Assembly (NCBI GenBank): GCA_038143065.1 | Contig: JAYQLI010000041.1 | Span: 1-48,604, forward strand | Source: Rhodospirillales bacterium | GTDB lineage: Bacteria; Pseudomonadota; Alphaproteobacteria; Bin95 | Length of the DNA stretch: 48,604 nt | Reading direction: 5' to 3' | Shown here: positions 1 through 46,340 of the stretch, in pieces | How the letters are laid out: each line of letters opens with the position of its first letter | Numbering within the stretch: the first letter of the stretch is position 1 | Position numbers and translations under genes: made by a program | The notes under the pieces: generated by a model | What the model was told of the DNA's origin: nothing | The model's database searches: none | The model's input: only the letters and a program-made list of their open reading frames with translations

Positions 1-322
1 CAAGCTGGAATTGACGCTGCACGCCCAGGTGCCACCTGCCGTGACCTTTATGAGGCAATGTCTACCGTAATTGCAGAAATTGATGATAGTGGTGGTGACA
101 TAGGAAGACTTGGTCATGGCCTTGGAATGCAACTAACAGAACAGCCTTCACATGCTATATTTTGACACGACTGTTCTTCAGGAAAATATGGTGCTTACAA
201 TAGAACCGTCTCTTAGTTACGGAAACGGCAAGATGATGGTTCATGAAGAGAACATTGTTGTTTCGGAAGGCCAAGCGAGACTATTGACTAAACGTGCTCA
301 ACCTCAGCTGCCAATAATATAA
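1..322 (+). CDS. M24 family metallopeptidase (Xaa-Pro peptidase-like), 3' part, one frameshift near 160
   Basis: Manual translation gives GRLGHGLGMQLTEQPS...VLTIEPS...MMVHEENIVV, the M24 C-terminal motifs; TAA at 320-322. Confidence 0.8.
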
Positions 323-13509: not shown

Positions 13510-14701
13510 TTAATGCAATCGTATCGCAAGCAACCATTTGAAGAGAGATGCCAGATTGTATCCACGACCGTACTTGTCCCCAATGCTATTTCGAGACCAT
13601 CCACCAAGATGATCAATCAGGTCTGACGGGCACTCGACTACACGTAATCTATCCCGAAACGCATGACGCAAAGAATGCACGACAATTGCCTCACTTATAG
13701 ATTTCTGGAGCCATTTGTTTAAACTCGCACTTGCTGAATTTGCATTCAGATGGCTAGTTGACGCATAGCGGGGAAATACAACTTCTGAAGTTCTGTGCGC
13801 TTGTAATCTCATCGCTGCCCATAAGCTATTTCCAGTAAGCGGCAGCACACGTTCACTACTGGTGGTTTTCAGTCGGCGGATTGCGTTTGGTCGAACGTGG
13901 ACGTGTGGAACATCACCTGACAAGACAATGTCATCCCATAGCAAACCTGCTGCTTCGGACAATCGCATGCCAGTATCAAGTATCAATGCTAAGAGCCACC
14001 GTTGGTCATCATCTGCAACACGACACTCTTTACTCAGTTTCCTTAACTCAGACACAGTCGGAACATATCGTTTCTGGGCTTCTCCGCCTTCACCCAGGTA
14101 TACACCACTGAAAACACCTGTTGGCTGAAGACCCTCTTCCCGAAGAACGAAGTTTATTATGGCCCTTACGTTGGTAAAGTTACGGCTGATGCTATCTTTA
14201 GACAGACCCCTGCTCTTGAAGTAATCGCGAAAAGCGTTTGCATCGCTTCTGGCAAAGGTATCAATGCGCTTGTCTCCGCATATGTGGAATCAAATAGCCA
14301 GTGGAGCGACGAGCACCTGCCTCAAACGTTTGCGACCTCCCAGCGCCTTTGAGTTTGACGTATGTTTCGACCGCATCGCTAAGAAACGGCGCAGTGCTAT
14401 CGTTTGTTGAAGCAATAGGATCTACCTTAGATACAGCCGTTCCAAACAACTGACCTATAAGCTCGTTCCGAGAACGCCGTCTCAGGATTGACCACTGATC
14501 ATCTAGTTCTTGTGTTAACAGAGCAGCCTGTTGTGCTGCACGGCTTCGACAAACTGTATGCAAACAGGTCTCGAATCTTGCTGTTTTGGAGTACTGTTGG
14601 AGCTCTTTTGGCACTCTTCTAGAGTAATAATAGGTCTTTCCTTTGAGCTTCAGGTAGTGAGGACGCTGGTGGTCCATGTGGTGGCCTCCCACGATTGACA
14701 T
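13510..14701 (-). CDS. Tyrosine recombinase/integrase with DUF6538-type N-terminus, frameshift near 14270
   Basis: YYYSRRVPKEL; TGMRLSEA, LKT, HSLRHAFRDRLR, GW, Y catalytic set. Confidence 0.92.
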
Positions 14702-28668: not shown

Positions 28669-29480
28669 CTCTGATCGCAGGAGCACCCAAGTTTGGTAAA
28701 AGCTGGTACGCGATGGGTCTTGCACACGCGACCTTGCCGCTGATGGACACAGAGTATTGTACATTGCTAATGAGGATAGTGAACGCAGGTTAAAAGACCG
28801 CTACTCAAAAAATTAGCTTTCAGCAAAGTGACAAACTCATATTTCTATCTGGACTGGATAGTGAGCGCTCGTTGCCGCGCGGAGAGCAGGCGCTCAATTT
28901 CTGAAAGCCTGCAAAGACAGCTACTCCTGATCTGGCCTGCATCATTATCGATACAATTCAAGCCGTTCGTAATCCTGCTTTAAAACAAGATTATGCATCA
29001 GTTGAGAATGAGTTTTCTCCACTTCGCAAACTCGCGCATGATTTGGATATTACGATTATCGCTGTTCATCACACCAAGAAAAAAACCGACTTTGAAACTG
29101 AACCTCTAGACCAAATACTTGGCTCACAAGAAATAACAGGAACTGTTGAGACAATATTGATCATGCAGCGTGAACCTCGCAGTCAAAACGTAAATCTATT
29201 CATCACAGGTGAAGACGTCGAAGAGGCAGACGACTATACGCTTGTTTGGAATGGACATGGCTTCAATGAACCCGTCGAGCGTCGCCTCGCCTCTCTTGGA
29301 TCGATGCAGCGGTCAATTTTTGATTACGTAGAGCAAAATCCGCGTTGCACGCAGGCTGCGATTGTCGAACACTTAGGCCGCACCAAGCAGCAGATTAATG
29401 AGGCTGTGGGGCGCTTGTTGGAACTAGGTCTGTTTAAAACTGCAAGTGGCGGAAGATTATTCGTTAATAATACTGCATAA
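28602..29480 (+). CDS. AAA (RepA/AAA_25-like) helicase with C-terminal HTH, frameshifted
   Basis: GAPKFGKSW Walker A, IIIDT Walker B, VHHTKK. Confidence 0.8.
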
Positions 29481-33303: not shown

Positions 33304-33312
33304 AATAGTTCG

Positions 33313-33633
33313 TTAGTCGGTTTGCCGTTCCTGACAATCGATTTGTACTCCACGATAGTCTATTGCTTTTGAAATAAAATCACCTCTCCAAGATTTTCTT
33401 ATTTCTTGCCAGACAGGTAGACATGCATCCTTGGCCTCTTTGTTATCATACTCAAATATATGACAAAGTTAATGCTTCTCCTCCCTATTCCATATGCGTG
33501 TAGTTGTATAACGGTGTAGCCCCAAGTTATGTAGTTCGGACAAGTAATTATGCTTAACCTTATCCCATTCAGCGACACTCAGCTTTAATTCGTTTTCACT
33601 GAGAAACGTTTGTATCGTTACATTTATAAGCAT
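33313..33633 (-). CDS. Small dimeric alpha+beta barrel-like protein (one internal TAA)
   Basis: TRIWN...IFEY...AC motif shared with 43836-44170. Confidence 0.6.
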
Positions 33634-33665
33634 TATCACATGGCTTCTTTGGCTATTTTGTATCA

Positions 33666-33757
33666 AGCATGACCTAACTACAGACCATAAGCAACAATCA
33701 CATGTCTCTTGAGTGCCGCTGTGGGCAGCGCAAGCTAGTTTCAGTAAAAGAGTTGAT
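33666..33757 (+). repeat. Z-repeat copy 1 (5' fragment of a Zn-ribbon gene; antisense promoter)
   Basis: accataagcaacaatcacatgtctcttgagtgccgctgtggg...gagttga. Confidence 0.92.
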
Positions 33758-34733
33758 CAGCAGATTAATGAGGCTGTGGGTCGCTTGTTGGAACTAGGTC
33801 TGTTTAAAACTGCAAGTGGTGGGAGATTATTTGTTAATAACTCTGCATAAGATAGCCTCTTTACCTTCTTGACCAACCTTTATTGCAGTCAATAGGGTCA
33901 AGAGCATGTGTGCTGATACAATTATATAATTTGGGATTTTGAAATGGCTAAAACTGTGCTGATTACCGCAGGAGCGAGTGGCATTGGGAGCGCAATGGCA
34001 ACTCAGTTCGATGCAAGTGGGGCTACGGTTTGGATAACTGATATTGATCAATCAGCACTTGATAAATGTCCTAAACACTGGCGAAAAAGTCGCGCAGACG
34101 TGCGGTCCGCATCTGAAATGTCAGACGTCTTTAGAAAAATTACTGATGAGCTGGGACAGCTCGATGTTGTTTGTGCAAATGCGGGGACGGCTGGGCCAAC
34201 AGCCTTAATTGAAGAACAACCGATAGAAGAGTTCGCAGATTGTTTGGACGTGAATATTAAAGGCGCGTTTTATACGGCGCGCGCAGCGCTCCCGATAATG
34301 AAACGACAAGGCAGCGGCTCAATAATTTTTACTTCGTCGACTGCTGGATTGCACGGTTTTCCTTACCGCGCTCCATATTGCGCTAGCAAATGGGCAGTAA
34401 TCGGCATGATGAAAACTATTGCAATGGAAGCTGGTCCCTACGGTGTACGCGCCAACGTAATCGCACCTGGATGCGTCGAAGGCGAACGCATCGACGGCGT
34501 GATAGAACGAGAAGCCAGACAAAAAAGTACAACACCTGAAGCAGTTCGTGCAGCGTATGAGGCAGGAACATCACTACGCAGCTTCGTAAGTGCTCAAGAC
34601 ATTGCCAATATGGCTGTCTTCTTATCTTCAGATCAGGCCAAAATGGTAAGTGGACAAGTAATTTCTGTAGACGGACATACCGAAAACACTGATCCAAAAG
34701 TCTGCTAGACAGATTTAATGAGACGGAGGTGCA
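33758..34733 (+). repeat. ~975-bp direct repeat copy 2
   Basis: Aligns with 29388-30364. Confidence 0.95.
33944..34708 (+). CDS. SDR family oxidoreductase (intact copy)
   Basis: TAGASGIG, NAG, YCASK, IAPG. Confidence 0.93.
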   Translation: MAKTVLITAGASGIGSAMATQFDASGATVWITDIDQSALDKCPKHWRKSRADVRSASEMSDVFRKITDELGQLDVVCANAGTAGPTALIEEQPIEEFADCLDVNIKGAFYTARAALPIMKRQGSGSIIFTSSTAGLHGFPYRAPYCASKWAVIGMMKTIAMEAGPYGVRANVIAPGCVEGERIDGVIEREARQKSTTPEAVRAAYEAGTSLRSFVSAQDIANMAVFLSSDQAKMVSGQVISVDGHTENTDPKVC

Positions 34734-34801
34734 TAGAGAAAAGTTGAGTTGTTACGCTTTGCTGAGTGGTCACTGGATGTGACTAGAACTATTTCCGTGT
34801 T

Positions 34802-35011
34802 ATGTCGTGGCTAAAACAATTCATTTTGAAGCAATTCTTCCCATATGCAGTTGCAATAGTATTGGGATTACAAATCAATGATTTGGCGCTTTTACTTACG
34901 CAAAACTTTGTTCTCTGGTTGCTAATTGTTGCTCCTATATGGGTCGTATTGTGTTATGGAACGCGGTTTATTTTTTGGAAGGCCAGTTGGATTGATAACT
35001 GGATTAGGTGA
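34802..35011 (+). CDS. Small membrane protein
   Basis: 69 aa with two hydrophobic stretches; partial copy at 46076-46177. Confidence 0.6.
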   Translation: MSWLKQFILKQFFPYAVAIVLGLQINDLALLLTQNFVLWLLIVAPIWVVLCYGTRFIFWKASWIDNWIR

Positions 35012-35052
35012 TCTTGAATGCAGCGTACTCTTTTCATTGGAGCAATTTGAGC

Positions 35053-35460
35053 ATGCGAAAATTTGGAGCAATCATTTTATCATTGGGACTTACAACGCCC
35101 GCCTCTGCAGCAGACTATCTTTGCGATAGCTTCGAGGTTGCATTTGAATTTTATCGATCGAATGTAGCTTTAGAAGAATTTGATGTTGCTGGATGGAGAG
35201 CACAGCCCTTCATACTCAGGGATTTTCCAGTCGCACCGTACATTGAGACAGCAGAAGAAGAATACGACCTGATAAATGTCGCAGATGGCCACCAGCGCAC
35301 TACAAGGTGATTTATACCTGCATCAAATGAATACGCTTTACCAGATGTATGAAATACTTAATCCCCATCCGATCACTGGTAAGTTCACGATATATAATAT
35401 CCGTACAGAAGTATCTTATGTAAGCACCTGTGAGCGACGTCGGATCATTCAAAGCTATTA
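35053..35460 (+). CDS. Secreted hypothetical protein, frameshifted
   Basis: MRKFGAIILSLGLTTPASA signal peptide; two overlapping ORFs. Confidence 0.5.
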
Positions 35461-35474
35461 ACATAGGTTAATAA

Positions 35475-35846
35475 TCATTGAGTTGGGACTGTAGGCTTTG
35501 TATTCCACTTTGTTTTGCAGTTTGCACGCATCTTTGCAGCAAGTTTAAAAACCAAAGACGCCTGATCACGTGACCGCGCACCGCTGATGATCTGACTGTT
35601 CTGCTTGGCCTCTGGTCCCACCAAGTGAGCGAGGACGATAGCAGCAATCAGTGCCGACTTACCGTTTTTCCTAGCCACCGACAGATAAGCACGGGACGTC
35701 CCTGCTGGGTTGTCGTAGACGTCGAGAACAAACTTATGTTGGAAGTCTAACAGCTTTATCGGTTGGCCAACTTTGCTACCTTCTGGGATCAGACAGTAGC
35801 GTTCTATGAACTGGCAAACCTTTTCTCCGCGAGTAGACATGAGCAC
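35475..35846 (-). pseudogene. terL: Terminase large subunit, N-terminal fragment only
   Basis: FIERYCLIPEG, LLDFQ, VARKNGKS; homology stops after ~108 aa. Confidence 0.88.
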
Positions 35847-35974
35847 CTAATTTGACTTTCCTGAGTTGGCCTCACTTTTTTGCCAACTGAGTGGTACATT
35901 TTCTGTACTGGTTTCATCAGTCTGCACAAATAGGCTGCTCATACTCGTACAGCCAGAATAAGGAGCAATAAACA

Positions 35975-36241
35975 ATGTATGCAACTTCAGCAGATTGGTC
36001 GTTTGACCAAGTAGCAGACTTTTCTGAAATGGGGCCAAAGATGGCTGCTAGCATGAAAGCAGCTGGTGCAGTTCATTGGCATTTTGTTGTTACTAGCGGA
36101 ACTACCGCTAGAAGCATGATGGTTTGGCCTGATAAAGAAACAGCGCACAAAGCAATCAAAATGTTCCGTGAAGACGCCCCAAACCAAAATGGCTCAAAAA
36201 TTACTTCTACATGCGAAGGTGAAATAGTCGCAGGATTTTAA
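35975..36241 (+). CDS. Small dimeric alpha+beta barrel-like protein
   Basis: AAGGAG RBS; RSMMVWPDKETA pattern. Confidence 0.7.
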   Translation: MYATSADWSFDQVADFSEMGPKMAASMKAAGAVHWHFVVTSGTTARSMMVWPDKETAHKAIKMFREDAPNQNGSKITSTCEGEIVAGF

Positions 36242-36587
36242 AAATGCCTAAGCGTTCAGAGGAACAGCGGATTGGCAGCGTCGTGATCTATTTTTGTATC
36301 GCGGTTACTGCTGCCATTTCGCTTTATGTGACATTCATAGCTGCCTAGCTTGATTGTACACAAAAGTATTTATTTGACGCGATTTGATACAATCCTACCT
36401 CGATTGTATGCAACAGTTTTTTTCACATAGTGACTACACGGACGCTTTGCTTAACATTGCCGCCAAACGCGGTGCAGCAGATCGTATCGCAGCTTACGAG
36501 TATTGTATGAAAAAAAGTGGTTATGTGGATTTGGCCGAGTAACAGATAAAGGCTTCCACAAGGTGACCGCGAATTTCTACAAAGATA

Positions 36588-37058
36588 CTACTGCGGCCTA
36601 GCAATTAAATCGTCTGCTCTGACCTTTGCAATCGCTGAACGTGCTTTCGTTTCTAGCTTTGCAAAGCCATTGAGTGTTCGGGGATCGGAAGCAGTCTGGT
36701 TGAGGGACATGCTGCGGATAACCGCAAGCTGCCTTCGTTCGAGTGTATCAATGACCGATAACAGCGGATTGGGGATTGGTGTCCCACGCTTGTTTTCGAC
36801 CATCATTCCGACTTCGTCTAACTCTGTTTGAGCAGTGCGAATGTCGGCTTCCATGCGTACTATTTTAGCCAGCAAGATCAGGTCCATGTCACGCCAATCT
36901 TCGCGTGCGCGGGCGCGTGAAAACTGGTGCCAGATTGTACGCTCTAAATCTGATCGCAGTTCGATCCCATCAGGGAGCGGCACATCAGACATCACACCTG
37001 CGAAACCTTGAACGGCTGCAGCGGTGCTGGATTTGTCTGTTCGACGTTTCTGAGACAT
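36588..37058 (-). CDS. terS: Terminase small subunit (P27-like)
   Basis: W...LILLA...GMMVENKRGTPIPNPLL; lies between the cos-like site and terL. Confidence 0.8.
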   Translation of the reverse strand: MSQKRRTDKSSTAAAVQGFAGVMSDVPLPDGIELRSDLERTIWHQFSRARAREDWRDMDLILLAKIVRMEADIRTAQTELDEVGMMVENKRGTPIPNPLLSVIDTLERRQLAVIRSMSLNQTASDPRTLNGFAKLETKARSAIAKVRADDLIARPQ

Positions 37059-37222
37059 GGATAGTTGTGTCCGATTTTTAATGTTGAAATATTGGGCAGA
37101 TATTGACGAAAACCGCACAAACTTAATGCAAAACCTTAAGTTAATCTATGCAAAGCAAATTTATTTTTGACTAAGCAGTAAAATGTAATCGACCATATAG
37201 AGGCCAACTAAAGGAGCTTACT

Positions 37223-37357
37223 ATGGCGTCTATAGCTTACAACAAAGACTTCATTGGGCCTGTCTGCCCTCCCGTGCACTTCACCACACCCCAAAAATGC
37301 CTGTTTGTGCAAGCTGTGCTTCATGACAGACTTTCAAAAATTAGACTTCCGTACTGA
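37223..37357 (+). CDS. 44-aa hypothetical protein
   Basis: AAGGAG RBS; open frame MASIAYNKDFIGP...LPY*. Confidence 0.5.
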   Translation: MASIAYNKDFIGPVCPPVHFTTPQKCLFVQAVLHDRLSKIRLPY

Positions 37358-37458
37358 ACTCATGAAAGTTTATTTGCAAACGTGGTGGAACTTAGCTTCA
37401 TGGAAACTGTGCTACTGTACGTCAGTTTAATGTTCTTCGACTACACAGCTAGCCCCGA

Positions 37459-37537
37459 AAAATCCGTAAACGCAGAAACAGATGAGAGTGGGCGCCGGTT
37501 TCTGTGTTAACGACTTTCGTCTTTGACCCACCCCCCC
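37459..37537 (-). other. cos-like packaging region
   Basis: gggggggtgggtcaaa...accggcgccc...tttctgcgtttacgg between the HNH remnant and terS, as in HK97-type cos phages. Confidence 0.6.
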
Positions 37538-37598
37538 ATTTCAAAACTTGGCATGGTATATGCAATTCTCCAATACCGCAGATAAAATGGTAATTGAT

Positions 37599-37787
37599 AT
37601 GGAACACAAAAAGGACGAAGCCAAATTAAGTTCATCAGATTTGACGACCGCGAATTATGTAAATGATCATCTCTTAGATCGCGTTCGCCATTTGCAAAAA
37701 ACTGAGCCAACATTGGTCAAACCAATATTTAACGAAGACGACAAAAAAGTCTTTGTTAAATTGAGCGCAATTGATTTGGTTTCTTGA
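37599..37787 (+). CDS. Small hypothetical protein
   Basis: Open frame converging on the HNH remnant. Confidence 0.5.
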   Translation: MEHKKDEAKLSSSDLTTANYVNDHLLDRVRHLQKTEPTLVKPIFNEDDKKVFVKLSAIDLVS

Positions 37788-37794
37788 ACACCAC

Positions 37795-37858
37795 TAAATT
37801 AAGCTGGGATGCTTTGGATCGATAGGCCAGCCATCGTTTCCAATTGTGCGACGTGTCG
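37795..37858 (-). pseudogene. C-terminal remnant of phage packaging HNH endonuclease
   Basis: TIGNDGWPIDPKHP, a typical HNH tail upstream of cos/terS. Confidence 0.65.
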
Positions 37859-38015
37859 TTGGTTTTTATGATTAAGTAATTTACTATCTATCTGTCAGCG
37901 ACGAAAACGCCCAACATCCCTGCAGTGCTACCATTTCCGTAAACCATAACCATTACGGTAGATAATATACGAAGCTTCATATGCAGCAAAATACCTAAAT
38001 TCTCAAACTGATACC

Positions 38016-38107
38016 AAGATGACCCAACTGCAGGCCATAATCAACAATCACATGTCCCTCGAGTGCCGCTGTGGGCATCGCAAACTCGTGTCTGCTAGAG
38101 AGTTGAT
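38016..38107 (+). repeat. Z-repeat copy 2
   Basis: MTQLQAIINNHMSLECRCGHRKLVSARELI. Confidence 0.92.
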
Positions 38108-38109
38108 AC

Positions 38110-38171
38110 GTAAGTTGCTTACCCGCAGCAACACCTGTCTTGATCGCCGCCAATGCTGTTAGCGGGTCCAT
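38110..38171 (-). pseudogene. 5' fragment of a phage-type late gene
   Basis: MDPLTALAAIKTGVAAGKQL, cut off at the Z-repeat. Confidence 0.55.
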
Positions 38172-38234
38172 TGGTCGCCTATTGATTGACACTGTTAAAT
38201 TAAGACTAAAAGTCTCGGCAACCCTCTTAAGGGT

Positions 38235-38287
38235 AAAAAACGGTTCTCACGACTTTTGGGAGGAGGTTGTGATTGAGCCGTTTTTTT
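38235..38287 (-). ncRNA. Candidate cuckoo-type sRNA hairpin/terminator
   Basis: Stem-loop with CCTCCTCCC in the loop and a U-tail. Confidence 0.5.
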
Positions 38288-38370
38288 ATTTTAGCCATGT
38301 GAAATCTGCATAACGGGTATGCAATATAGCACCTAGCTAAAATGCTGCAGTGCAGCTAAGTTAGTTCCGT

Positions 38371-38475
38371 ATGCAACACGAACCTCCCTTATCATTGTGT
38401 TGCCAGCGTAGAAAACACTCCTCCTGTGTTGGCACTACGCTCCAAGAAAGCCTCCGACGACGCGGGGGTTTTTTT
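38371..38475 (+). ncRNA. Candidate cuckoo/anti-SD sRNA
   Basis: Two hairpins with ACCTCCC and TCCTCCT loops, then an intrinsic terminator. Confidence 0.65.
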
Positions 38476-38479
38476 GTTT

Positions 38480-38522
38480 TTAGGGCATCCGTTGCAGCAC
38501 CATCACAAGCATTGCAATGATC
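38480..38522 (-). repeat. RMP* repeat copy 1 (3' end of gene 39457-39651)
   Basis: Encodes IIAMLVMVLQRMP*. Confidence 0.85.
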
Positions 38523-38572
38523 TAAAAACTTTTTCTGACCGTAATTAATATAGACGACGCGTTAACTGGGGA

Positions 38573-38788
38573 ATGCTCATGTTTATGAAAAACGCTACCG
38601 CGCGGGACTGGATACTCCGCTACATTGAAATGCGTCACGATTTAAACGATCCAAAAGAAGTCCTACGTCTTGCACAATCTGCCGACTATTTAGACCAAAA
38701 TGCCAACGTTACTGATACTGGCAAATTGCTTTTCGAATTTGGTAAATTTGATGGTATGCACAAAGCTAGTAAGCACGAAGCAGCATAA
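38573..38788 (+). CDS. Small hypothetical protein (cassette)
   Basis: 71-aa ORF between two RMP* repeats. Confidence 0.65.
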   Translation: MLMFMKNATARDWILRYIEMRHDLNDPKEVLRLAQSADYLDQNANVTDTGKLLFEFGKFDGMHKASKHEAA

Positions 38789-38790
38789 CG

Positions 38791-38814
38791 TTAGGGCATC
38801 CGCGTTAGCACCAT
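38791..38814 (-). repeat. RMP* repeat copy 2
   Basis: Encodes MVLTRMP*. Confidence 0.8.
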
Positions 38815-38844
38815 TCTGTGTCGTTTTTCGAGGTCAATTTGCTG

Positions 38845-39435
38845 ATGCATAAATTGAAGCATCTTCTACTCATAATTTCGTTGGTTTGGAGTTCAGCAGT
38901 ATTGGCACTGGAAGAACCAAAGTATTCAATCGTAAAGCAGACAGATGATTATGAAATACGTAAGTATGGTGATCGACTGGCGGTAGAAACGATAGAAGGC
39001 AGTGGCGAAGACAGAGCGTTTTCTCTGCTGTTTAAGTATATCTCAGGGGCTAACAAAATTAACACCAAAGTCGATATGACTACCCCAGTCACGCAGTCCA
39101 CCAAGGTTGAAATGACCACACCAGTCGCCCAAGAAGATGTAAATGGCAAACGCGTGATGCGCTTCTTTCTGCCCTCCAAATTTACAATTGAAAGTGCTCC
39201 ACGTCCAACTTCAGATGCTGTAAGACTTGTAATTGTAAAAGGTCAAACATATGCGGTCGCGAAGTATTCAGGAAGGTCAAGTGATCAAAACTTTGTTCGT
39301 AACGCTCGCAAACTGATTGATGGGTTAGAGCGAGATGGATTGCAGGCAATCGGCGAACCCATCAAAGCGACTTTCAATGGACCACTAACACCATTTTTTC
39401 TGCGTCGAAACGAAGTAATGATACCTGTCAGATAA
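38845..39435 (+). CDS. SOUL family heme-binding protein
   Basis: EEPKY...YEIRKY, LFKYISGAN, MTTPV, MRFFLP, RRNEV; signal peptide. Confidence 0.92.
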   Translation: MHKLKHLLLIISLVWSSAVLALEEPKYSIVKQTDDYEIRKYGDRLAVETIEGSGEDRAFSLLFKYISGANKINTKVDMTTPVTQSTKVEMTTPVAQEDVNGKRVMRFFLPSKFTIESAPRPTSDAVRLVIVKGQTYAVAKYSGRSSDQNFVRNARKLIDGLERDGLQAIGEPIKATFNGPLTPFFLRRNEVMIPVR

Positions 39436-39456
39436 AGATAATCTAAGTCTCAGCAA

Positions 39457-39651
39457 TTAAGGCATCCGTGTTAGTACCGTTACAAGCATCGCAATGATTG
39501 AAGCTGATGCACCGATCATGATGGCCTCAAGGCGTTTTACGCGGGCAAAGACTTTTTTGAAATGGATGTTAACTGAGGTTTTGATCGCTGCTATCTGAAT
39601 TGTCATTTCGTGAATGCAGTCGTGTGTGGATACAACTGTTCAGTTGTCCAT
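39457..39651 (-). pseudogene. Phage coiled-coil plus TM (XhlA/hemolysin-like) gene with TGA at codon 4; RMP* copy 3
   Basis: MDN*TV...RVKRLEAIMIGASASIIAMLVTVLTRMP*. Confidence 0.65.
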
Positions 39652-39809
39652 ATTGATTCCCTCTAAATATTTAGAATTTCGGTCGTTAAAGTTAATACGA
39701 AGACAATGTTCATATGCTCCCTAAAACCTAACCCTGCTGCGAAAACGGTGGGGTTATCTTTTGTGATTTGGCTCGGCCTGCCTGACTGCGACTGCGCCGC
39801 TAATGGCTA
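39545..39809. repeat. ~265-bp block copy 2
   Basis: Aligns with 30362-30626. Confidence 0.93.
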
Positions 39810-41479
39810 GACGCTATGTATTTTAGGGCCTTGATAACAGGTCAATATCAAACCTCTTGGTATTTTGAGTGGCTAATAAATTCATCTTGTAGGTCGTTTA
39901 CTAAGGTATGGTGCGGCGAAAGCCGCCCTATATTTGCCTTTGGGTGGGTTGTTCGCTTATCCCCTACAGTCCACCCATCGGCATACTGTTATTGCGCCAA
40001 AGCAAATCCATTAATCTCATTATTTAACTATTCTGTTTGAAAGAGGATTTTTGTGCGACTATTAAAATTACTCCGCACCCTCGGCTATTTGTGTATCTGT
40101 TGCTACGTGAACACATGTTTTATTCTATAAATAATCAAGACAAGATTTCAGCTGCAACTTTGGTTAACGTAAATAAAAAATAAAAATAATTGAGGCAGTA
40201 CTATGACTTATGTAACGCAGAAATTGCGGGCTATAAATCTATTTGATCCATCTCAAGCGCAAAGATTGACTGATCCAAAACTTCAACGTTTTGCCTTGGC
40301 GCTAATTATATTGTTTCAGAGTTACCGATATTAGTTTGGTACGTTGCAACACGCTTTTAGAAATTTTCGCAAAACTAACTCTTCTTATTCTTAGGGTTTC
40401 TAGCTAAAAGTTTTGCCTATGCGGAGAAAACGAGATTGGATACTGGTTTGTGTCCGCTAGGCCTTAGCTATTGACTGACCCCGTGTATCATGTATCGATA
40501 TGAGACTTACCAGTGCTGTGTCTGGGGGGACATTTGATGCTGACTAAAAATAAATTTGAACAACGGAAAATAACGTTCACTGAGTTTAGTGAGAGTTGTC
40601 GATCAAAATTTGCGGCAAAAATTTCTAGCAAGCGCGATCATGAAGGCAATCCTTTGCTTGATGATCTAAAAGTGAAGCAGCAACTCAAGTTGCATAAGGA
40701 TGCCTTGGATAAGGTAGGCGAACTATAAGCTCCAATGGTACTATCGTATCCAAGTGCTTCCACGCTCTCAATGTCATCACTGTGGCATAATTATTGCTGC
40801 AAGGTATTCCGCAAGTGGGGGAAAACAAATGACAAAAGAAAATGAGAATTTGATAGCAAGCGACAACCCGATCGCAAGCCTGTCCCATGACCAAAAAATT
40901 CAATTTACTTCTTCAAGGTATCTGGGTGACCTAAAGACGTCTCGACGAAATGCCACCGAAGCAGTCCGTACAAGTGAGTTTGACATCACTGAGAGAGATG
41001 TGAATACCAATATGTCCGATCGCTAGGTTGCCCCCCAGCCCTAAAATGCATCGTTTTATTTCATTTTTCTGAATTATTGCATTTCACAACGATGGTTAAT
41101 TTCTTTGACGTTGCCAAACGCGGCCAAGCCGTGCTTTTCTCCAAATATGGCTTTTGATGTTTCTAATACGACCAAAATTTTATCCGCAGCTTTGCAACGT
41201 GTTGCGAGGCTGGAGCCATCTTTGACGCGCGATGAAAAGGAAACACCAGCACAGACCGTCGCTAAGGAGTGACAGTCTCTCTCAGCAACGACGCCAAGAT
41301 GCACATAATGAAAGATACGCTGAAGTGACGCCAAAGCCTTTAGGATGATCGCCACCTGAAACGCTAACAGAAACATCAGCACGTTTTAGTGTCCTGACCA
41401 CTATTGAACATGTGAACGCAAAAAAATTTCATTTTTGCACTAAACAAATAAAAAAAAGTCGTTTTTGCTATTCGAGTGC

Positions 41480-41506
41480 TAAAACGCCTAGCTCTGATGC
41501 CGTTAA
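41480..41506 (+). promoter_or_regulatory. Sigma-28 (FliA) promoter
   Basis: TAAA-N15-GCCGTTAA (consensus TAAA-N15-GCCGATAA), ending 20 bp before the flagellin ATG. Confidence 0.75.
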
Positions 41507-41525
41507 GGTTATCGGAGGGTATTCT

Positions 41526-42359
41526 ATGGCGAACATTGGTGTTTCAAATTCCGTGTATCAAATCAACACTGCGTTGACGAAAACATCACAGGATGTCTCT
41601 CAAAATATGACACGCATTGCCGCTGGTAATAATTCAGCGGTCGCAAGCGATCAGGCGTCCATAACTGCAGTGAAAAATACTTTCTTAACTGATGTCGCAG
41701 CAACACAAAGTGCAATAAAGTCTATTGGGCTTGTAAAAGGATTTCTAGCAACGGCTATCGCAGCCGTTGATAATATCTCAAATCGTAATGCGAGAATGTT
41801 TGAATTGGCTATCATGGGGGCCAACGGCACTAATACCGCAACTGAAAGTGCTGCAATTGATGCCGAAGCAGAAGCACTAATTGACGATATGTTACTCTCA
41901 GCTGTTGAAGCCAATTACAAAGGTAAAACGATTTTTGACGGTGGTTACGATTTACACTTTTCTTTGGGCGGCCGTGGACAAAAATCGTCAGTTTATATTG
42001 GTACGATTAACGTAATGGAAATCGGCTTGTATCATTACGGAACACAAAATCTGATCGTGAAGCCCAGCGATGGCTTAGCAGATGCTGATGCAATGACTTC
42101 CATACTGGACGTATTTCAGGAAGAAATAAATAAACTGAGAACTGAACTTGCCTCTGGATATGCAGTCGTGGAACAAGCACAGAGTACACTTACTGATTTA
42201 AACACAGAGTATAAAATCAGTGTAGGTGCAGTGGATGACCTAAATTTCTCAGCAGAAGCCGCATTACTTGCTAAAAACCAATTTTTACAAGATGCGGCCA
42301 ATGCAATGCTCGCCCAAGCAAACCAAGCGCAAAGCGGCCTGATTGCACTTATTTCGTAA
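41526..42359 (+). CDS. fliC: Flagellin (short, divergent)
   Basis: RMFELAIMGANGT...YKGKTIFDG; C-terminal DLNFSAEAALLAKNQFLQDAANAMLAQANQ; GGAGG RBS. Confidence 0.88.
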   Translation: MANIGVSNSVYQINTALTKTSQDVSQNMTRIAAGNNSAVASDQASITAVKNTFLTDVAATQSAIKSIGLVKGFLATAIAAVDNISNRNARMFELAIMGANGTNTATESAAIDAEAEALIDDMLLSAVEANYKGKTIFDGGYDLHFSLGGRGQKSSVYIGTINVMEIGLYHYGTQNLIVKPSDGLADADAMTSILDVFQEEINKLRTELASGYAVVEQAQSTLTDLNTEYKISVGAVDDLNFSAEAALLAKNQFLQDAANAMLAQANQAQSGLIALIS

Positions 42360-42782
42360 TCCGATAACGAATTTTTAACGTGAAGCAGCGTTCAACCTAA
42401 TTCTAGACATAAGTGGTTTTAAGGCTGTGCGAAAAATGGTGAGAAGAACACCACCCAAATTTAACTTTTGAAGGATGCTCTATAGAGGCGGGTTGGTGAT
42501 GCACTCGCACAAATTGACCACGGTCGCGCAGCGCACGCGAGACCCTAACACAGACCGAATTGATCAAGTCGCGCACGCACGCGCGAGGCAGGTCAGAACA
42601 CAATAAAGCACAGTGTCGCGCGCGGGCGCGAGGGGAAAACAAGCTTTGGCGCTACAATGCGCGGGTGCGCGCGGGCGTTGCATTTTAGCATTGCACCGTC
42701 AACAAAAGGGTGGATACAAAGGTGGATCGAAATAACTAATAACAACTAATATATTGTTTTATATTATTTTTATTGGAAACAA

Positions 42783-42797
42783 TGGTGCCCCAGAGGG
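42783..42797 (-). repeat. att core (tRNA 3'-like), with arm-like GGTGGAT direct repeats at ~42709-42727
   Basis: tggtgccccagaggg is identical to 14753-14767. Confidence 0.8.
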
Positions 42798-43089
42798 TTA
42801 TGTTCCCTACAAAGGCATCGCATCAAAGCTAACACTCTGTTTTCATTACAACCATGCGTGTGCAGTTCATGTCAATACGGCACTAAATGGTCAGTAATCT
42901 CTTATCGTTACTAGTATAGGGAAGCACAGGAGTGTGGCTTCTTAAGTATTACTCTTAGAGTTAAGATGTTTTCTTCCACTACTTGTACAAACTTAAAACT
43001 TAGACACACCCCATGCAGGACCCAGTGTGGGTATGGGTGATAGAACGTACTTGCTGCAGCACATAGATAGGGTTCTCAGAGTGGAGAGC

Positions 43090-43555
43090 TTAATAAAACT
43101 TTGATCGACGCTCCAGACTCCTCTTAGAGTATATCTTATCCTTATCATAAAACTCATCGAATGATGGAATATCTGTACCAAGCTCAACAAGAAAAGCTTA
43201 CTCTTTTTGTGAAGATGTGCGCTAATGGCGGAAGCTTTCAGCGTTATCTAAAGTTGTTGTCTTAAAAACTATTATCTGGTCAGTGCCGATCGCTGCAAAG
43301 TGACTAAATACTTGATCGCCACATCTCTCACAACGCTGTATGGAGTGACCGCTGCCACTGCCAGATGGTCCCACTGTCGTCACCAGCTTACCTTTATCCA
43401 CCACAAAGTTGCTCGCTTCTATCAGTGAATGAACAACAAATGCGGATGCCGTGTAACGCTGGCAGAGCTTACAATGACATGCGTGTGGAACATCGGTTCA
43501 TCAGTAATGTGGTGTGAACATCGCCACAAGAGCAACCGCCTTCATGTCTTTCCAT
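43090..43555 (-). CDS. GFA/CENP-V family protein, frameshifted
   Basis: GGCSCGDV, ACHCKLCQR, RCERCG, HIFTK. Confidence 0.82.
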
Positions 43556-43587
43556 AGTGAACCTCACAACTTTTATGCTACCATCTC

Positions 43588-43678
43588 ACGATGACCCAAC
43601 TCCTTACCATAAGCAACAACCACATGTCTCTTGAGTGCCGCTGTGGGCATCGTAAACTGGTGTCAGTCAAAGAGTTGA
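43588..43678 (+). repeat. Z-repeat copy 3
   Basis: MTQLLTISNNHMSLECRCGHRKLVSVKEL. Confidence 0.92.
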
Positions 43679-43689
43679 ACAGTTGTTTC

Positions 43690-43749
43690 TTTGCTCTCCA
43701 GCCACGACGTAGCCAGTCCAGTCAAGCTGGGTAGTATTTGTCCGATCAT
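43690..43749 (-). pseudogene. 5' fragment of a phage holin-like gene
   Basis: MIGQILPSLTGLATSWLESK, cut off at the Z-repeat. Confidence 0.5.
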
Positions 43750-43835
43750 GCTGTGATCTTTCCATAATTTGGTGATTTGGAGATTTTGAATTGTCGTGCT
43801 AGCGTGATCGCAGCCAACACAAAGAGGAGCAACTT

Positions 43836-44170
43836 GTGTCCAATACTGCGCTGATGAACTACTCAACATGATTTTGCCAATAACGAAGACTTGAAGCTTT
43901 ATCTAGAGCGACAAGACGCGGCGTTTTCACCAGAAGTCACAAACTTTTTACAGACGCGGGTATGTTGCGCAGAGTTGTAACGCGGATTTGGAATAAACAA
44001 CACGCTTTTCGTGTTGGTATATTGTTCGAGTACGCGATCGGCGGCTTAAAGATTGTAAACCCCTCCTAGAACAATATTACCTTTCGGCCGTCGAGGGTCT
44101 TGCTACTAAAGTGGAGGGTTCCCGTGGAGTGGTTGTTCACGAATTTGTCTCAGATGAGTTTCAAGATTAA
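43836..44170 (+). CDS. Small dimeric alpha+beta barrel-like protein, frameshifted
   Basis: GAGGAG RBS plus GTG; RVVTRIWNK...GILFEY; SRGVVVHEF. Confidence 0.65.
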
Positions 44171-44177
44171 CAGCTAA

Positions 44178-44318
44178 CTATTTCTTAGCAGCCCCGCCAG
44201 AGAAGCCAAAGTAAGCACCAACCAGTGCCGATAGTGATCCATACATCATCATCAGCACAGCATCCGCTTCGGCCATTCTGGCGAGGTCTATTAACACAGC
44301 AATCGTAGAGACGATCAT
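44178..44318 (-). pseudogene. 3' part of a phage-type membrane (holin-like) gene
   Basis: MIVSTIAVLIDLARMAEADAVLMMMYGSLSALVGAYFGFSGGAAKK*. Confidence 0.55.
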
Positions 44319-44476
44319 TTAAGTGGCCCACAGGCGCTGCCCACCCGCCAGGCTACCCATTGTTACAAACTTAGCTAAGCCTACTGTGGACCACGTTAGA
44401 GAGTCTCTGTGGGTGTATTTATGGTTTGACTGGGAAGAGTTTGACAGAGGCCAGTATGTCCAGCCTCCGTTTTATT

Positions 44477-44608
44477 TTATGCAGCAGAAGACTTAGCTGC
44501 TTGCTTGGCTTCATAAGCCGCTTTCTTCTCTTGGTATTGCTCTTCTGTTAGGTTGTGCCAGCCAACGCATTTACCTGTTGGGCTACGCCCACATCCGCAA
44601 TCAGACAT
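44477..44608 (-). CDS. 43-aa CDGSH-like iron-sulfur miniprotein
   Basis: MSDCGCGRSPTGKCVGWHNL...; AAGGA RBS; too short for the ORF track. Confidence 0.7.
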   Translation of the reverse strand: MSDCGCGRSPTGKCVGWHNLTEEQYQEKKAAYEAKQAAKSSAA

Positions 44609-45267
44609 ATCAGTATCCTTCATGATTATGCCAGAGAGTTAGTCGGAAAATATTTCTATTCAATGGCTTGCACCGCACATTAACTGTGGAGCCTTGCACA
44701 TAATTTTGTGTCATGAAATTGAACGAATCCAGTAGTCAGAAATTAATAGAAGTTACAAGCAAAAGGCATCCACAAATTCTGTGGGTAAGTCGGTGGATAC
44801 ATCTTCAAATATCCATCAAAACCTAAGAAATATAGGATATAGGTTTCATTGCACAAATTTTAGGCATAAAAATAAGTATCTGAATTTATTAGTGATTATT
44901 TTTAAGAATAATACAACGAAAGCCCTTTTATAAAGGCGATTTAAATACAAAATGAATTATCAAAATTTGGTCAAACAAAGTTAAATGTCTAAATTACTTA
45001 CATTTTTGACCAATCTCGTTGCATAAACTGGCATATTCCTCAACTACCACTTTACCTGTGCGTAAATTGCTAAACCGTCAGAAAAATCAGACGTCAATTA
45101 AGCCCGTCAAAGTTAACTGATTGGTCATGACGTGACCCTTGACACCGCCAAATCTTGCTCTTGCGCATATGACAAGAAGCACGTGATGGTGGTTTGTCGC
45201 AATTAAGGGAAGCATTGTTTTTCGCCAGCCAACGGACGCTGGTGATTTGCCAATATTCAATTTCAAC

Positions 45268-45498
45268 TTAATCTCGTGACTTTTTACCTAAAACGGCACC
45301 CCAGGTCGTAACGCAAAACGGAACACAGTAGGTGAGTAAAACCTTTAAAAATGGTGGAAATTCACCTTTCGAAATGACATCCCCATGATTTATTATTGTT
45401 AAAAGTGTGCCCACGATACACGCAGTAAAAAATGCTTTTTTGGGTATGCCATCTGTCTTTGCCAGATTTATAAATTCACTGACACTAATGGTTGTCAT
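45268..45498 (-). CDS. nrtS: NrtS-family small membrane protein
   Basis: IVGTLLTIINHG...LTYCVPFCVTTWG. Confidence 0.72.
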   Translation of the reverse strand: MTTISVSEFINLAKTDGIPKKAFFTACIVGTLLTIINHGDVISKGEFPPFLKVLLTYCVPFCVTTWGAVLGKKSRD

Positions 45499-45515
45499 AT
45501 ACTATGCCGTTAATT

Positions 45516-45815
45516 TTATGCTTCATTAAAGTCTAACTCTACCTCGCCCTGAAAGTGCATTTCTTTGTTGGGTAATGCTTTCGTAAATCGTACAATTTCT
45601 TGGGCTATTATTGCTTCAATATCTTTTTGAACTTTCGCATTCTCAAACTCCCAGACTACCGTTGATACATGTGGTTTATCTTCATCAACTACCAACCGGA
45701 AGCGTGCGCCCTTTTTTCCTTGGAGAAGCATTGGCCATTTCGTATGGAGAACACTGTTGAACATTTCAGCATCTTCCACAGAGGTAAAAGTTCGCACAAA
45801 AATCTTAATCCTCAT
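45516..45815 (-). CDS. Small dimeric alpha+beta barrel-like protein
   Basis: RTFTS..DAEMF, KPHVSTVVWEF; AGGA RBS. Confidence 0.7.
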   Translation of the reverse strand: MRIKIFVRTFTSVEDAEMFNSVLHTKWPMLLQGKKGARFRLVVDEDKPHVSTVVWEFENAKVQKDIEAIIAQEIVRFTKALPNKEMHFQGEVELDFNEA

Positions 45816-45845
45816 TTCTTGTCCTGATATTATCTAATTAAATTC

Positions 45846-45937
45846 AACATTACCTAACTCCACACCATAAGCAACAACCACATGTCCCTAGAGTGTCGTT
45901 GTGGGCATCGCAAACTGTTGTCAGCGTAAGAGTTGAT
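45846..45937 (+). repeat. Z-repeat copy 4
   Basis: accataagcaacaaccacatgtccctagagtgtcgttgtgggcatcgcaaact...gagttga. Confidence 0.9.
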
Positions 45938-46075
45938 CGGTGTTAAACCCCACCGCTACGATCTATGAGGTTGCCAGTGTTGATTGAACCATACGACGAC
46001 CAACGATAGTGCCATTTTCAATAGGCTAAAGAAGCTTAAGTGGCCTATGGACTCAACATGAACTATATTAAGTCT

Positions 46076-46177
46076 ATGACGTCGCTTACTCAATTCATGC
46101 TGAAGCAATTCTTCCTATGCAGTTGCAATAGTATTGGGATTACAAATCAATGATTTGGCATTTTCACTTTCGTAAAA
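46076..46177 (+). pseudogene. Truncated copy of the small membrane protein gene 34802-35011
   Basis: tatgcagttgcaatagtattgggattacaaatcaatgatttggc is shared exactly. Confidence 0.85.
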
Positions 46178-46340
46178 TCAAATCAATCTGTCGAAAAATG
46201 TAGAATAACAGGGTAACTCAGCAATCGATGCAGTCGAGTTTTTGCCCCTACCCGTAAACGACAGAATCAAAGAAAAAGTAGCCCAGAGTAGCCCTGAAAA
46301 CAAAAGGCTCAGCGTGTTTCAGCTAAGCCTTTGAAAATAA

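What the first reader, a model, noticed from the sequence alone, without database searches (positions are those of the whole stretch)
33666..45937. Four-copy ~90-bp Z-repeat acting as a portable outward-facing promoter
Seen: copies at 33666, 38016, 43588 and 45846 all lie in one orientation and encode only the start of a Zn-ribbon gene (MTQL.TISNNHMSLECRCGHRKLVS.KEL). Two have a stop at codon 3, and three stop matching at about the same point (gagttga). On the - strand each reads TTG(C/A)TT-N17-(CATGCT/CATCTT/CATCGT/AATGTT), keeping A-11 and T-7. Each has a different divergent ATG 34-39 bp from the repeat's start codon (33633 barrel protein, 37980 short leader-like ORF, 43555 GFA, 45815 barrel protein plus nrtS). 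Inference: the DNA is retained as a promoter and recombination handle for interchangeable cargo, not as a gene.
Basis: partly seen in the sequence, partly recalled or inferred. Interest (0 to 1): 0.88.

Follow-up and report, generated by a model that had tools for sequence, protein, structure and literature searches.

The report
Zinc-ribbon gene stubs between cargo modules
The four repeats are broken-off front ends of a small, widespread zinc-ribbon gene that seems to serve as a shared recombination anchor for swapping neighbouring genes; a promoter role is possible but unproven.

Summary
In detail: four same-strand copies at 33669, 38019, 43591 and 45849. They are not a free-standing repeat. 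They are the first 93-131 nt of a 213-nt gene, here called Z, for a 71-aa zinc-ribbon protein with no Pfam, PHROG, NCBIfam or PADLOC match. Metagenome contigs hold Z many times, both whole and as stubs. Whole copies are under strong purifying selection, with dN/dS 0.13. Z sits between unrelated genes on both sides, with 33 upstream and 25 downstream flank families. Its 5' part travels with the upstream flank and its 3' part with the downstream one, so crossovers fall inside Z. The stubs end at many different points. Where the other parent sequence could be found, the joint shows 5-10 nt of microhomology. Best reading: these are scars of serial cargo insertion, by homologous exchange in Z plus an illegitimate joint. 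The promoter idea is untested and weakly supported. The hexamers match 6-7 of 12 positions, no scan calls them, synonymous sites show no extra constraint, and two of the four neighbouring cargo genes are broken.

The parts
33669..33767 (+). Z stub 1: nt 1-99 of the 213-nt Z gene, with TAA at codon 3
   Evidence: the repeat family starts at 33649
33758..33767 (+). Joint of stub 1. The 10-nt microhomology CAGCAGATTA is shared by Z and by the 3' end of the HTH gene, whose own copy is at 29388-29397
   Evidence: The 23-mer that starts here occurs exactly twice in the window, at 29388 and 33758; 0 are expected by chance
33316..33633 (-). Divergent cargo next to stub 1. It is homologous to a 117-aa ORF of L080 but is interrupted by a stop codon, so it is a pseudogene here
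   Evidence: 96.6% identity, stop at residue 66 of the alignment; no Pfam match
38019..38122 (+). Z stub 2, about nt 1-104. It is open for 47 codons, with an unrelated tail
   Evidence: The joint shares AGTTG with the other parent, seen in L014 and L080
37888..37980 (-). Short divergent ORF (30 aa from ATG 37980) next to stub 2. Whether it is a gene is doubtful
43591..43683 (+). Z stub 3, about nt 1-93. It is open for 47 codons, with an unrelated tail
   Evidence: The sequence to its right recurs on own-genome contig C49 and in L014 and L025 behind unrelated DNA
43096..43555 (-). Divergent GFA-family cargo next to stub 3. It is broken by frameshifts and two in-frame stops, so it is a pseudogene
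   Evidence: compared with the intact 155-aa homolog in L091
45849..45977 (+). Z stub 4, nt 1-131, with ATT for ATG and two TAA stops
   Evidence: L080 has the same joint
45516..45815 (-). Divergent 99-aa cargo next to stub 4. It is intact and has no known family
   Evidence: 98% identical to L024
45268..45498 (-). NrtS-like 76-aa gene downstream of the 99-aa cargo
   Evidence: NF038050, 39.8 bits, cut-off 25
45161..45208 (+). Conserved ~48-nt element at the far end of the stub-4 cargo module. It may be a degenerate piece of a further Z-like stub
   Evidence: In L016, L017 and L084 it follows Z nt 1-46..59. Its likeness to Z nt 50-100 is loose
29043..29480 (+). HTH (MarR_2/HTH_24) gene. Its last ~31 codons are the other parent of the stub-1 joint
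13510..14701 (-). Island-end tyrosine integrase, in two ORFs (DUF6538 part and Phage_integrase part) that lie in different frames
   Evidence: It is 35% identical to the integrase found next to Z arrays in metagenome loci

Best explanation
Each repeat is the dead 5' end of a small protein gene, Z (213 nt, 71 aa, Cys-x-Cys ... Cys-x2-Cys zinc ribbon, function unknown). In its intact form Z sits in a hypervariable stretch of genomic islands. Some of these islands lie next to a tRNA gene and a DUF6538-type tyrosine integrase. On its left, Z usually faces a divergent cargo gene a few tens of bases away. On its right, its stop codon overlaps or abuts the start of a variable gene, whose Shine-Dalgarno sequence lies in Z's last codons. 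Because Z is the only sequence shared between otherwise unrelated modules, it works as a homologous-recombination anchor. Incoming DNA that carries Z plus foreign neighbours crosses over inside Z. Its other end is joined illegitimately at a few bases of microhomology, as in homology-facilitated illegitimate recombination. When that second joint falls inside the resident Z, a 5' stub of the old copy is left to the left of the new module. Repeating this gives a same-strand array of stubs. The window holds four such stubs in a decaying island.

Shown: the gene status of Z, purifying selection on it, mosaic Z copies, microhomology at joints, separate origins of the modules, and decay in the window. 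Inferred: the order of events, the dependence on homologous recombination, and any role of the Z protein.
For: The family is real. 20 protein clusters were found, about 15 of them ~71 aa. 132 of 141 metagenome candidates were confirmed and 80 kept. A profile search finds 199 cluster representatives at E <= 1e-3.

Selection acts on the protein. dN/dS is 0.13 and dS 0.90 among 23 of 34 full-length copies. The 11 copies with gaps or stops were dropped.

The borders are sharp. Among 33 upstream-flank families, conservation begins at the ATG. Beyond the stop codon the flanks fall into 25 families among 34 full-length copies. In 13 of 18 downstream families of the 25 copies with an intact 68-75-codon ORF (9 of the 34 were dropped), a + strand ORF starts within -7..+8 nt of the Z stop.

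Crossovers fall inside Z. In pairs that share the downstream family, the 3' third of Z differs by 0.059, against 0.273 for other pairs (9 pairs). Pairs that share the upstream family are alike only at the 5' end (4 pairs).

Arrays exist elsewhere. All 115 nhmmer hits lie on one strand of their locus. 25 of 83 loci hold two or more copies, and the rightmost is the longest in 19 of those 25.

The joints show microhomology: CAGCAGATTA for stub 1 (10 nt), AGTTG for stub 2, and AAGGCCA or AAGG at the Z-nt-139 joint, whose right-hand side matches the window from 32825.

The modules have separate origins. Each window module has a closer relative in another contig (90-96% over 0.5-2.2 kb) than any partner within the window, where the copies are 74-84% alike.

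A precedent for such arrays is in passages of PMC5361080.
Against: The left border of Z lies within about 20 nt of the ATG in all 33 flank families. Random illegitimate joints do not obviously explain that; selection, or a site-specific step, may be needed.

Stub ends cluster near nt 93-104 in several independent joints, which hints at a preferred site.

The excess of 5' stubs (50) over 3' stubs (11) cannot be interpreted, because the loci were fished with peptide patterns from residues 10-26.

The mosaic test rests on only 9 and 4 pairs of related sequences.

A tyrosine integrase lies near some arrays (7 of 83 loci, 5 distinct contexts) and a serine recombinase near others (4 loci).

No experiment shows recombination at Z.
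Confidence: 0.6

Rival explanations
1. One reading: the stubs are kept because the first ~30 nt of Z carry an outward (- strand) promoter that drives whichever cargo gene lies to the left. This would make Z's 5' end a portable promoter as well as a recombination handle. It can hold together with the scar reading.
For: All four copies read TTG(C/A)TT-N17-CATNNT or AATGTT on the - strand. A crude start-picking rule puts the cargo start 24-47 nt from the Z ATG in 13 of the 29 families that have a divergent ORF. A mode of 31-36 nt holds in 10 of all 33 families, which leaves no room for a separate cargo promoter outside Z. Position -3, which would be T-7 of the proposed -10, is A on the + strand in 27 of 33 flank families.
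Against: The match is only 6-7 of 12 consensus positions. The scan (threshold 9 of 12) calls none of the four, and it finds 21 sites in 13 kb against 26 expected. In three related loci it calls no - strand site in Z. In two of them it calls a + strand site in the spacer that points at Z: ATGACA-17-TATCAT (10 of 12) and GGGACA-17-TATCAT (9 of 12). That alone could explain the ~35-nt spacing. Synonymous sites show no extra constraint: the major-codon share is 0.81 for codons 2-11 and 0.76 elsewhere (p = 0.24), and dS is 1.1 in codons 1-33. In the window two of the four cargo genes are pseudogenes and one is a 30-aa ORF.
Confidence: 0.2
2. A site-specific cassette system of a new, non-integron kind: a recombinase (the DUF6538 tyrosine integrase or the serine recombinase seen near arrays) recombines a site at the start of Z, and cassettes are inserted and excised there.
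For: The left border is narrow, within about 20 nt of the ATG in 33 flank families. The - strand reads GTT(A/G)GGT at that border in the four window copies, like an integron core. Integrases 70-86% identical to each other lie 0.6-2.7 kb upstream of the first Z, on the same strand, in 5 distinct contexts. A serine recombinase, or a 3' piece of one, lies downstream of Z in several loci.
Against: There is no hairpin or inverted repeat in the stubs or in whole Z (z-scores -0.75 to +1.4; 0 inverted repeats). Stub ends are spread from nt 33 to 201 and show microhomology with unrelated parents. Crossovers fall inside Z. The GTT is not invariant: codon 3 is CAG in 12 of 48 Gln codons. The integrase lies directly next to tRNA-Arg or tRNA-Leu genes, as ordinary island integrases do. 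It scores 23 bits against the integron-integrase model, whose cut-off is 265. The own genome has none over the cut-off either (best 82 bits).
Confidence: 0.12
3. The copies arose by local duplication, or are an assembly or binning artefact of a genome with 5.5% estimated contamination.
For: The window does hold local duplications (30004-30303 = 34373-34672 at 94%; 30362-30626 = 39545-39809 at 92%). The genome consists of 52 contigs.
Against: The copies differ by 16-26% from one another, mostly at third codon positions. Each has a nearer relative, with the same neighbour gene, in independent metagenome contigs and in contigs of RNA libraries from four studies.
Confidence: 0.03

Closest known systems
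Arrays of orphan immunity genes in Vibrio cholerae T6SS clusters, formed by sequential displacement (Kirchberger et al. 2017, PMC5361080; abstract and passages read). That paper cites the related Rhs/CDI 'orphan' strings.
   Same: There is a conserved anchor next to variable modules. Serial insertion of horizontally acquired modules leaves remnants in one orientation. The authors propose homology-facilitated illegitimate recombination.
   Different: Here the anchor is a 213-nt stand-alone gene of unknown function, not a large structural or toxin gene. The remnants are 5' stubs of the anchor itself. The cargo is of mixed function on both sides, and no toxin-immunity logic is visible.
Additive flexible genomic islands at tRNA hotspots in Alteromonas (Lopez-Perez and Rodriguez-Valera 2016, PMC4898812; passages read)
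   Same: Gene cassettes of mixed function accumulate in tRNA-linked islands and are shared nearly identical between lineages. A repeated piece of the target gene marks additions.
   Different: There the repeated piece is part of the tRNA gene and marks site-directed integration. Here it is part of a protein gene inside the island, and its break points vary.
PeSL promoter-stem-loop motifs of T4-type phages (PMC2839356, PMC4122927; only the search listing and the start of each abstract were seen)
   Same: A short conserved sequence between variable ORFs mediates modular shuffling.
   Different: PeSLs are non-coding promoter and terminator motifs. Z is a translated gene under purifying selection, it has no stem-loop, and its promoter role is unshown.
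Integron attC / cassette arrays
   Same: Same-strand repeats separate short cargo genes that have short 5' leaders, and there is a GTTRRRY-like heptamer at the border.
   Different: There is no hairpin, no IntI, the GTT is not invariant, the repeat is a coding sequence, and the break points vary.

Membership tests
Integron attC site | Imperfect palindrome that folds as a long hairpin (R''/L'' with L'/R') | tested here: not met
   DNA folds of both strands of all four copies give z-scores -0.75 to +1.38. Whole Z gives z -0.33 and 0 inverted repeats in 3 loci.
Integron attC site | Invariant GTT of the R' core GTTRRRY at the cassette border | tested here: not met
   The four window copies read GTT(A/G)GGT on the - strand. 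Across 54 unique copies, codon 3 is CAG instead of CAA in 12 of 48 Gln codons, which changes GTT to GCT.
Integron attC site | An IntI-type integrase (TIGR02249) with the array | tested here: not met
   The best own-genome score is 82 bits against a cut-off of 265. The integrase near metagenome arrays scores 23 bits.
Sigma-70 promoter | -35 and -10 hexamers close to consensus at 16-18 nt spacing | tested here: not met
   The match is 6-7 of 12. The scan, with a threshold of 9 of 12, does not call it in the window or in L015, L022 and L080.
Sigma-70 promoter | Conservation of the DNA beyond what the coding sequence needs | tested here: not met
   The major-codon share is 0.81 for codons 2-11 against 0.76 elsewhere, p = 0.24. 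dS in codons 1-33 is 1.1. Position -3 is A in 27 of 33 families, which is the only hint in favour.
Sigma-70 promoter | Transcripts that start downstream of the -10 | not testable with these tools
   Only assembled contigs of RNA libraries were on hand, and no start places were listed.
Homology-facilitated illegitimate recombination / sequential displacement array | A conserved anchor flanked by unrelated DNA, with crossovers inside the anchor | tested here: met
   There are 33 upstream and 25 downstream flank families, and the Z copies are mosaic.
Homology-facilitated illegitimate recombination / sequential displacement array | The other end is joined at short microhomology to unrelated DNA | tested here: met
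   Three joints whose second parent was identified show 10 nt, 5 nt and 4-7 nt. For the other joints no second parent was found.
Homology-facilitated illegitimate recombination / sequential displacement array | Dependence on RecA and on an anchor, shown by transfer experiments | not testable with these tools
   This needs a culture and a transformation or conjugation test.
Tandem site-specific integration (att repeats of a target gene) | One fixed crossover point shared by all repeats | tested here: not met
   The 5' stubs end between nt 33 and 201, and 3' and internal pieces exist as well.
MITE / insertion sequence | Terminal inverted repeats | tested here: not met
   There are 0 inverted repeats of 10 nt or more around three full-length copies.
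Known protein family for Z | A score over the curated cut-off in Pfam, NCBIfam, PHROGs or PADLOC, or a fold match | tested here: not met
   Pfam gives 0 families for P0002, and distant members score only below cut-off. PHROGs gives E >= 0.0087. NCBIfam gives 0 and PADLOC 0. The PDB sequence search gives E >= 0.66. Foldseek's best is E 0.28 on a model with pLDDT 78. The Atlas neighbours are all 'hypothetical protein'.

The most novel reading that the evidence does not exclude
Z may be a purpose-built 'expression socket' of a cassette platform that is neither an integron nor a transposon. One 213-nt gene, with about 20 nt before it, would supply its own near-leaderless promoter, an outward promoter for the gene on its left and a Shine-Dalgarno plus stop-start overlap for the gene on its right. 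It would also be the only homology through which modules are exchanged between genomes. The stubs would then be kept because they still drive the neighbouring cargo.
Probability: 0.15. Interest if true: 0.75.

Novelty: new variant of a known kind. Interest (0 to 1): 0.42.

Why it matters
If the anchor reading holds, a tiny uncharacterised gene organises gene exchange in the flexible genome of bacteria that are common in estuary and coastal metagenomes. It marks module borders that can be searched for. It gives a sequence handle for cataloguing cargo. It also offers a natural case of homology-facilitated illegitimate recombination that leaves readable scars. For annotation the lesson is practical: short same-strand repeats with a start codon can be stubs of a real gene, and their 'conserved hexamers' may be no more than conserved codons.

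Tried and rejected
attC site. This was my first idea, because the ends read ACCTAAC ... GTTGA. I rejected it after folding and the IntI search.

Relatives. A DNA search in 60 related genomes found 0 with the repeat. These genomes are a sample, so this means 'not found in those searched'. A scan of one genome per species gave 2 loci, and the viral collection gave 1.

RNA evidence. 24 runs were listed and 6 are RNA libraries. Four of them, from four studies, were laid at 90% likeness. 395, 148, 59 and 350 contigs fitted, and they cover the cargo modules and the edges of Z. Contigs show neither starts nor strands, DNA may be present in such libraries, and no start places were listed. Two contigs end exactly at Z nt 30. 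I read that as the k-1 limit of a 31-mer assembly graph at a repeat, not as an RNA end; this is inference.

An early profile from 33 flank representatives suggested unusually conserved third positions in codons 6-9. The fuller test on 54 unique copies did not bear it out.

TATCA / TGATA motifs upstream of Z are mildly enriched: 7 and 5 of 33 families, against 1.8 and 1.2 in shuffles. This applies only to a subset, and I did not follow it to a conclusion.

Defence-gene content of the cargo. PADLOC gave only a weak Cas3-like match in 1 of 9 large cargo proteins.

Structure. The AlphaFold model is a generic zinc ribbon, with no PDB match at E < 0.1.

Literature. A search for 'DUF6538' found 0 papers. 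I made no search that could show the Z family is undescribed, so I make no claim that it is absent from print. No supplementary files were opened.

I ran no complex-prediction job, because no binding is claimed.

Full report
OBSERVATION. The repeat is real. The repeat finder reports one four-copy direct family at 33649-33757, 37999-38107, 43571-43679 and 45829-45937. The alignment shows about 90 shared bases from ATGACC to GAGTTGA. A DNA search of the whole 4.63-Mb assembly, of which the window is contig C41, finds these four at E 4e-47 to 7e-20 and nothing else below E 0.76. The differences between copies fall mostly at third codon positions of the + strand frame. That is the signature of a sequence that diverged while it coded for a protein.

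WHAT THE REPEAT IS. A search with the 47-codon ORF of copy 2 found 20 protein clusters, about 15 of them ~71 aa long. Their consensus is MTQLQTISNNHMSLECRCGHRKLVSVKELISRLSPTATIYEVARKAKCSHCDTKGVADFRLLYVCG..EE.. I call this gene Z. The window copies are its first 99, ~104, ~93 and 131 nt.

A scan of metagenome contigs gave 141 candidates. 132 were confirmed and the best 80 were kept. The genome collection gave 2 loci and the viral collection 1. A nucleotide profile finds 115 copies in the window plus these 83 loci, always on the same strand within a locus. The 111 outside the window are 34 full-length copies, 50 5' stubs ending between nt 33 and 201, 11 3' pieces, 9 internal pieces and 7 cut by contig ends. 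The loci were fished with peptide patterns from residues 10-26, so the excess of 5' stubs is at least partly a sampling effect.

Full-length copies are under strong purifying selection: dN/dS 0.13 and dS 0.90, from 23 of 34 copies, the other 11 being dropped for gaps or stops. A profile search of 1.84 billion cluster representatives finds 199 at E <= 1e-3, mostly 60-130 aa. The own genome holds three more distant members at contig ends, one of them intact.

No library names the family. Pfam, PHROGs, NCBIfam, PADLOC, a PDB sequence search and the Atlas give nothing over threshold. The model (pLDDT 78) is a generic zinc ribbon with no fold match at E < 0.1.

SURROUNDINGS OF Z. Conservation is confined to the gene. 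Among 80 copies with enough upstream DNA there are 33 unrelated upstream-flank families. Information content rises from near zero to near maximal at the ATG. Only -3 (A in 27 of 33) and -5 (C in 21 of 33) stand out before it. A subset shares a TATCA and/or TGATA motif within 20 nt.

The left neighbour is usually a divergent gene. A crude start-picking rule gives gaps of 6-119 nt, with a mode of 31-36 nt in 10 of 33 families. Four families have no divergent ORF of 40 or more codons, and in at least two copies a same-strand ORF ends on Z's ATG.

On the right, 34 full-length copies have 25 downstream families. 25 of these copies have an intact 68-75-codon ORF; they fall into 18 downstream families. 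In 13 of those 18, a + strand ORF starts within -7..+8 nt of the stop. The usual form is ..AAAGAGGAAGTTTGATG.., so the ribosome-binding site of the next gene is made of Z's last codons.

In five distinct contexts (7 loci), a DUF6538-type tyrosine integrase lies 0.6-2.7 kb upstream on the same strand. These integrases are 70-86% identical to each other. Where the contig reaches far enough, the integrase sits directly beside tRNA-Arg(CCT) or tRNA-Leu(GAG). So Z belongs to the variable part of tRNA-linked islands.

The window fits this picture in a decayed form. G+C drops at about 13 kb. A related integrase (35% identity) is split into two frames at 13510-14701. There are pieces of terminase genes. 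The cargo next to stub 1 carries a stop codon. The cargo next to stub 3 has frameshifts and stops. Next to stub 2 there is only a 30-aa ORF. The cargo next to stub 4 is intact.

HOW THE STUBS AROSE. Three results point to recombination in and at Z rather than at a fixed site.

(i) Z copies are mosaics. Pairs with the same downstream family are nearly identical in Z's 3' third (0.059 against 0.273 for other pairs; 9 pairs). Pairs with the same upstream family are alike only near the 5' end (4 pairs; examples). The samples are small and the sequences are related.

(ii) Where the second parent of a stub joint could be found, the joint lies in a few shared bases. For stub 1 it is CAGCAGATTA, shared with the 3' end of the HTH gene at 29388. 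For stub 2 it is AGTTG. For the joint after Z nt 139, whose right side matches the window from 32825, it is AAGGCCA or AAGG.

(iii) Each window module has a closer relative in other contigs (90-96% over 0.5-2.2 kb) than the stubs have to each other, so the modules were acquired separately.

This is the pattern proposed for orphan immunity arrays in Vibrio: a homologous anchor plus an illegitimate joint (passages of PMC5361080). If the illegitimate joint falls inside the resident Z, upstream of the crossover, a 5' stub stays on the left and a hybrid full-length Z on the right. In 19 of 25 multi-copy loci the rightmost copy is indeed the longest.

What this model does not explain well is why all upstream flanks meet Z within about 20 nt of its ATG, and why several joints cluster at nt 93-104.

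THE PROMOTER IDEA. The geometry argues for it. With about 35 nt between the two start codons, a cargo promoter would have to overlap Z. Beyond that I found no support. The hexamers match 6-7 of 12 positions. The scan calls none of them in the window (21 sites found, 26 expected) or in three related loci. The sites it does call in the spacer face Z: ATGACA-17-TATCAT ending 13 nt before the ATG in L022, and GGGACA-17-TATCAT ending 7 nt before it in L080. These would give a near-leaderless Z mRNA. That would account both for the missing Shine-Dalgarno and for the ~35-nt spacing (inference).

Synonymous sites in codons 2-11 are no more conserved than elsewhere (0.81 against 0.76, p = 0.24), and dS in codons 1-33 is 1.1. 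The conserved 'boxes' are therefore explained by conserved amino acids. RNA libraries of four studies hold contigs of these modules, but contigs cannot show 5' ends. The idea stays open at about one in five.

OTHER READINGS. attC and integron membership fail on hairpin, integrase and invariant core. A MITE or IS fails on inverted repeats. Fixed-site tandem integration fails on the spread of break points. A new site-specific system cannot be excluded, given the narrow left border and the nearby recombinases. Local duplication or misassembly is unlikely, given the independent contigs.

NOVELTY AND VERDICT. The kind of process is known: anchor-guided acquisition that leaves orphan remnants, and additive islands (PMC5361080; PMC4898812). 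The anchor is new to the libraries I could search. It is a 71-aa zinc-ribbon protein with translational coupling on one side and a tight divergent junction on the other. It also recurs widely in coastal metagenomes. I made no literature search able to show that it is undescribed.

As a pointer to a gene-sized recombination anchor it is of moderate interest.

Noticed in passing
window 13000-14701: Probable left edge of a genomic island. G+C falls from ~0.52-0.55 to ~0.44-0.48 at about 13 kb. A tyrosine integrase is split into a DUF6538 ORF (14261-14701) and a Phage_integrase ORF (13510-14055) in different frames. No tRNA gene is present in the window.
   Followed up: partly
window 15357-26696 (- strand): A run of large ORFs with RTX, cadherin-like, Big_9, Calx-beta and M60 peptidase domains. 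The ORFs at 21431-24202 and 23985-26696 overlap, which suggests a broken or frameshifted giant adhesin or peptidase gene.
   Followed up: no
window 29388-30303 and 33758-34672; 30362-30626 and 39545-39809: Segmental duplications inside the island (92-95% identity). The first pair carries the tail of the HTH gene and an SDR gene. The SDR gene is truncated in the left copy (29875-30339) and whole in the right copy (33944-34708).
   Followed up: partly
window 35475-35846 and 36588-37118 (- strand): Phage remnants: an N-terminal fragment of a large terminase and a P27-type small terminase. Homologous pieces, and a portal fragment, lie near Z in L012, L083 and L088.
   Followed up: partly
window 31405-31887, 32875-33303, 43096-43555: Three GFA-family genes within 12 kb, about 25% identical to each other. 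The third is a pseudogene.
   Followed up: partly
window 41412-42359: A flagellin-like gene (Flagellin_N and Flagellin_C) stands alone inside the island.
   Followed up: no
window 33300-46300: Terminator-like hairpins are about twice as frequent as in shuffles (25 found, 12.8 expected). For example, 38443-38476 has 14 pairs followed by a T run.
   Followed up: no
own genome C6:247-444 (-), C10:50558-50793 (+), C30:53146-53289 (-): More distant members of the Z family lie at contig ends: one intact 66-aa copy, one frameshifted and one with a stop. Repeats of this family may be what breaks the assembly there.
   Followed up: partly
L022:~880-893; also L037, L015, L035: A palindrome TATCA-N3-TGATA, or near versions of it, lies about 7-19 nt upstream of the Z start in several unrelated flank families. 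It could be an operator or a pair of facing -10 boxes.
   Followed up: partly
L043, L045, L047 (Z nt 1-189) and L066-L068: Z stubs are fused directly to the last ~60 codons of the island integrase, giving a 117-aa chimeric ORF in L047. This implies tandem islands followed by deletion.
   Followed up: no
L069, L072, L073 (for example L073:6831-7394, - strand), L071: A 187-aa serine recombinase lies convergent to a Z stub. 26-codon 3' pieces of it lie about 1.0-1.2 kb downstream of the Z start in L034, L035, L040 and L094. A like piece lies about 2.9 kb beyond the full-length Z in L052 and L053.
   Followed up: partly
L116 (G276:C6), 9757-9963 (- strand): In an unrelated genome of the same class, a single Z-family gene lies between ychF and a run of unknown genes (YbjQ-like, a 746-aa protein with a weak Toprim match). 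There is no array there.
   Followed up: partly
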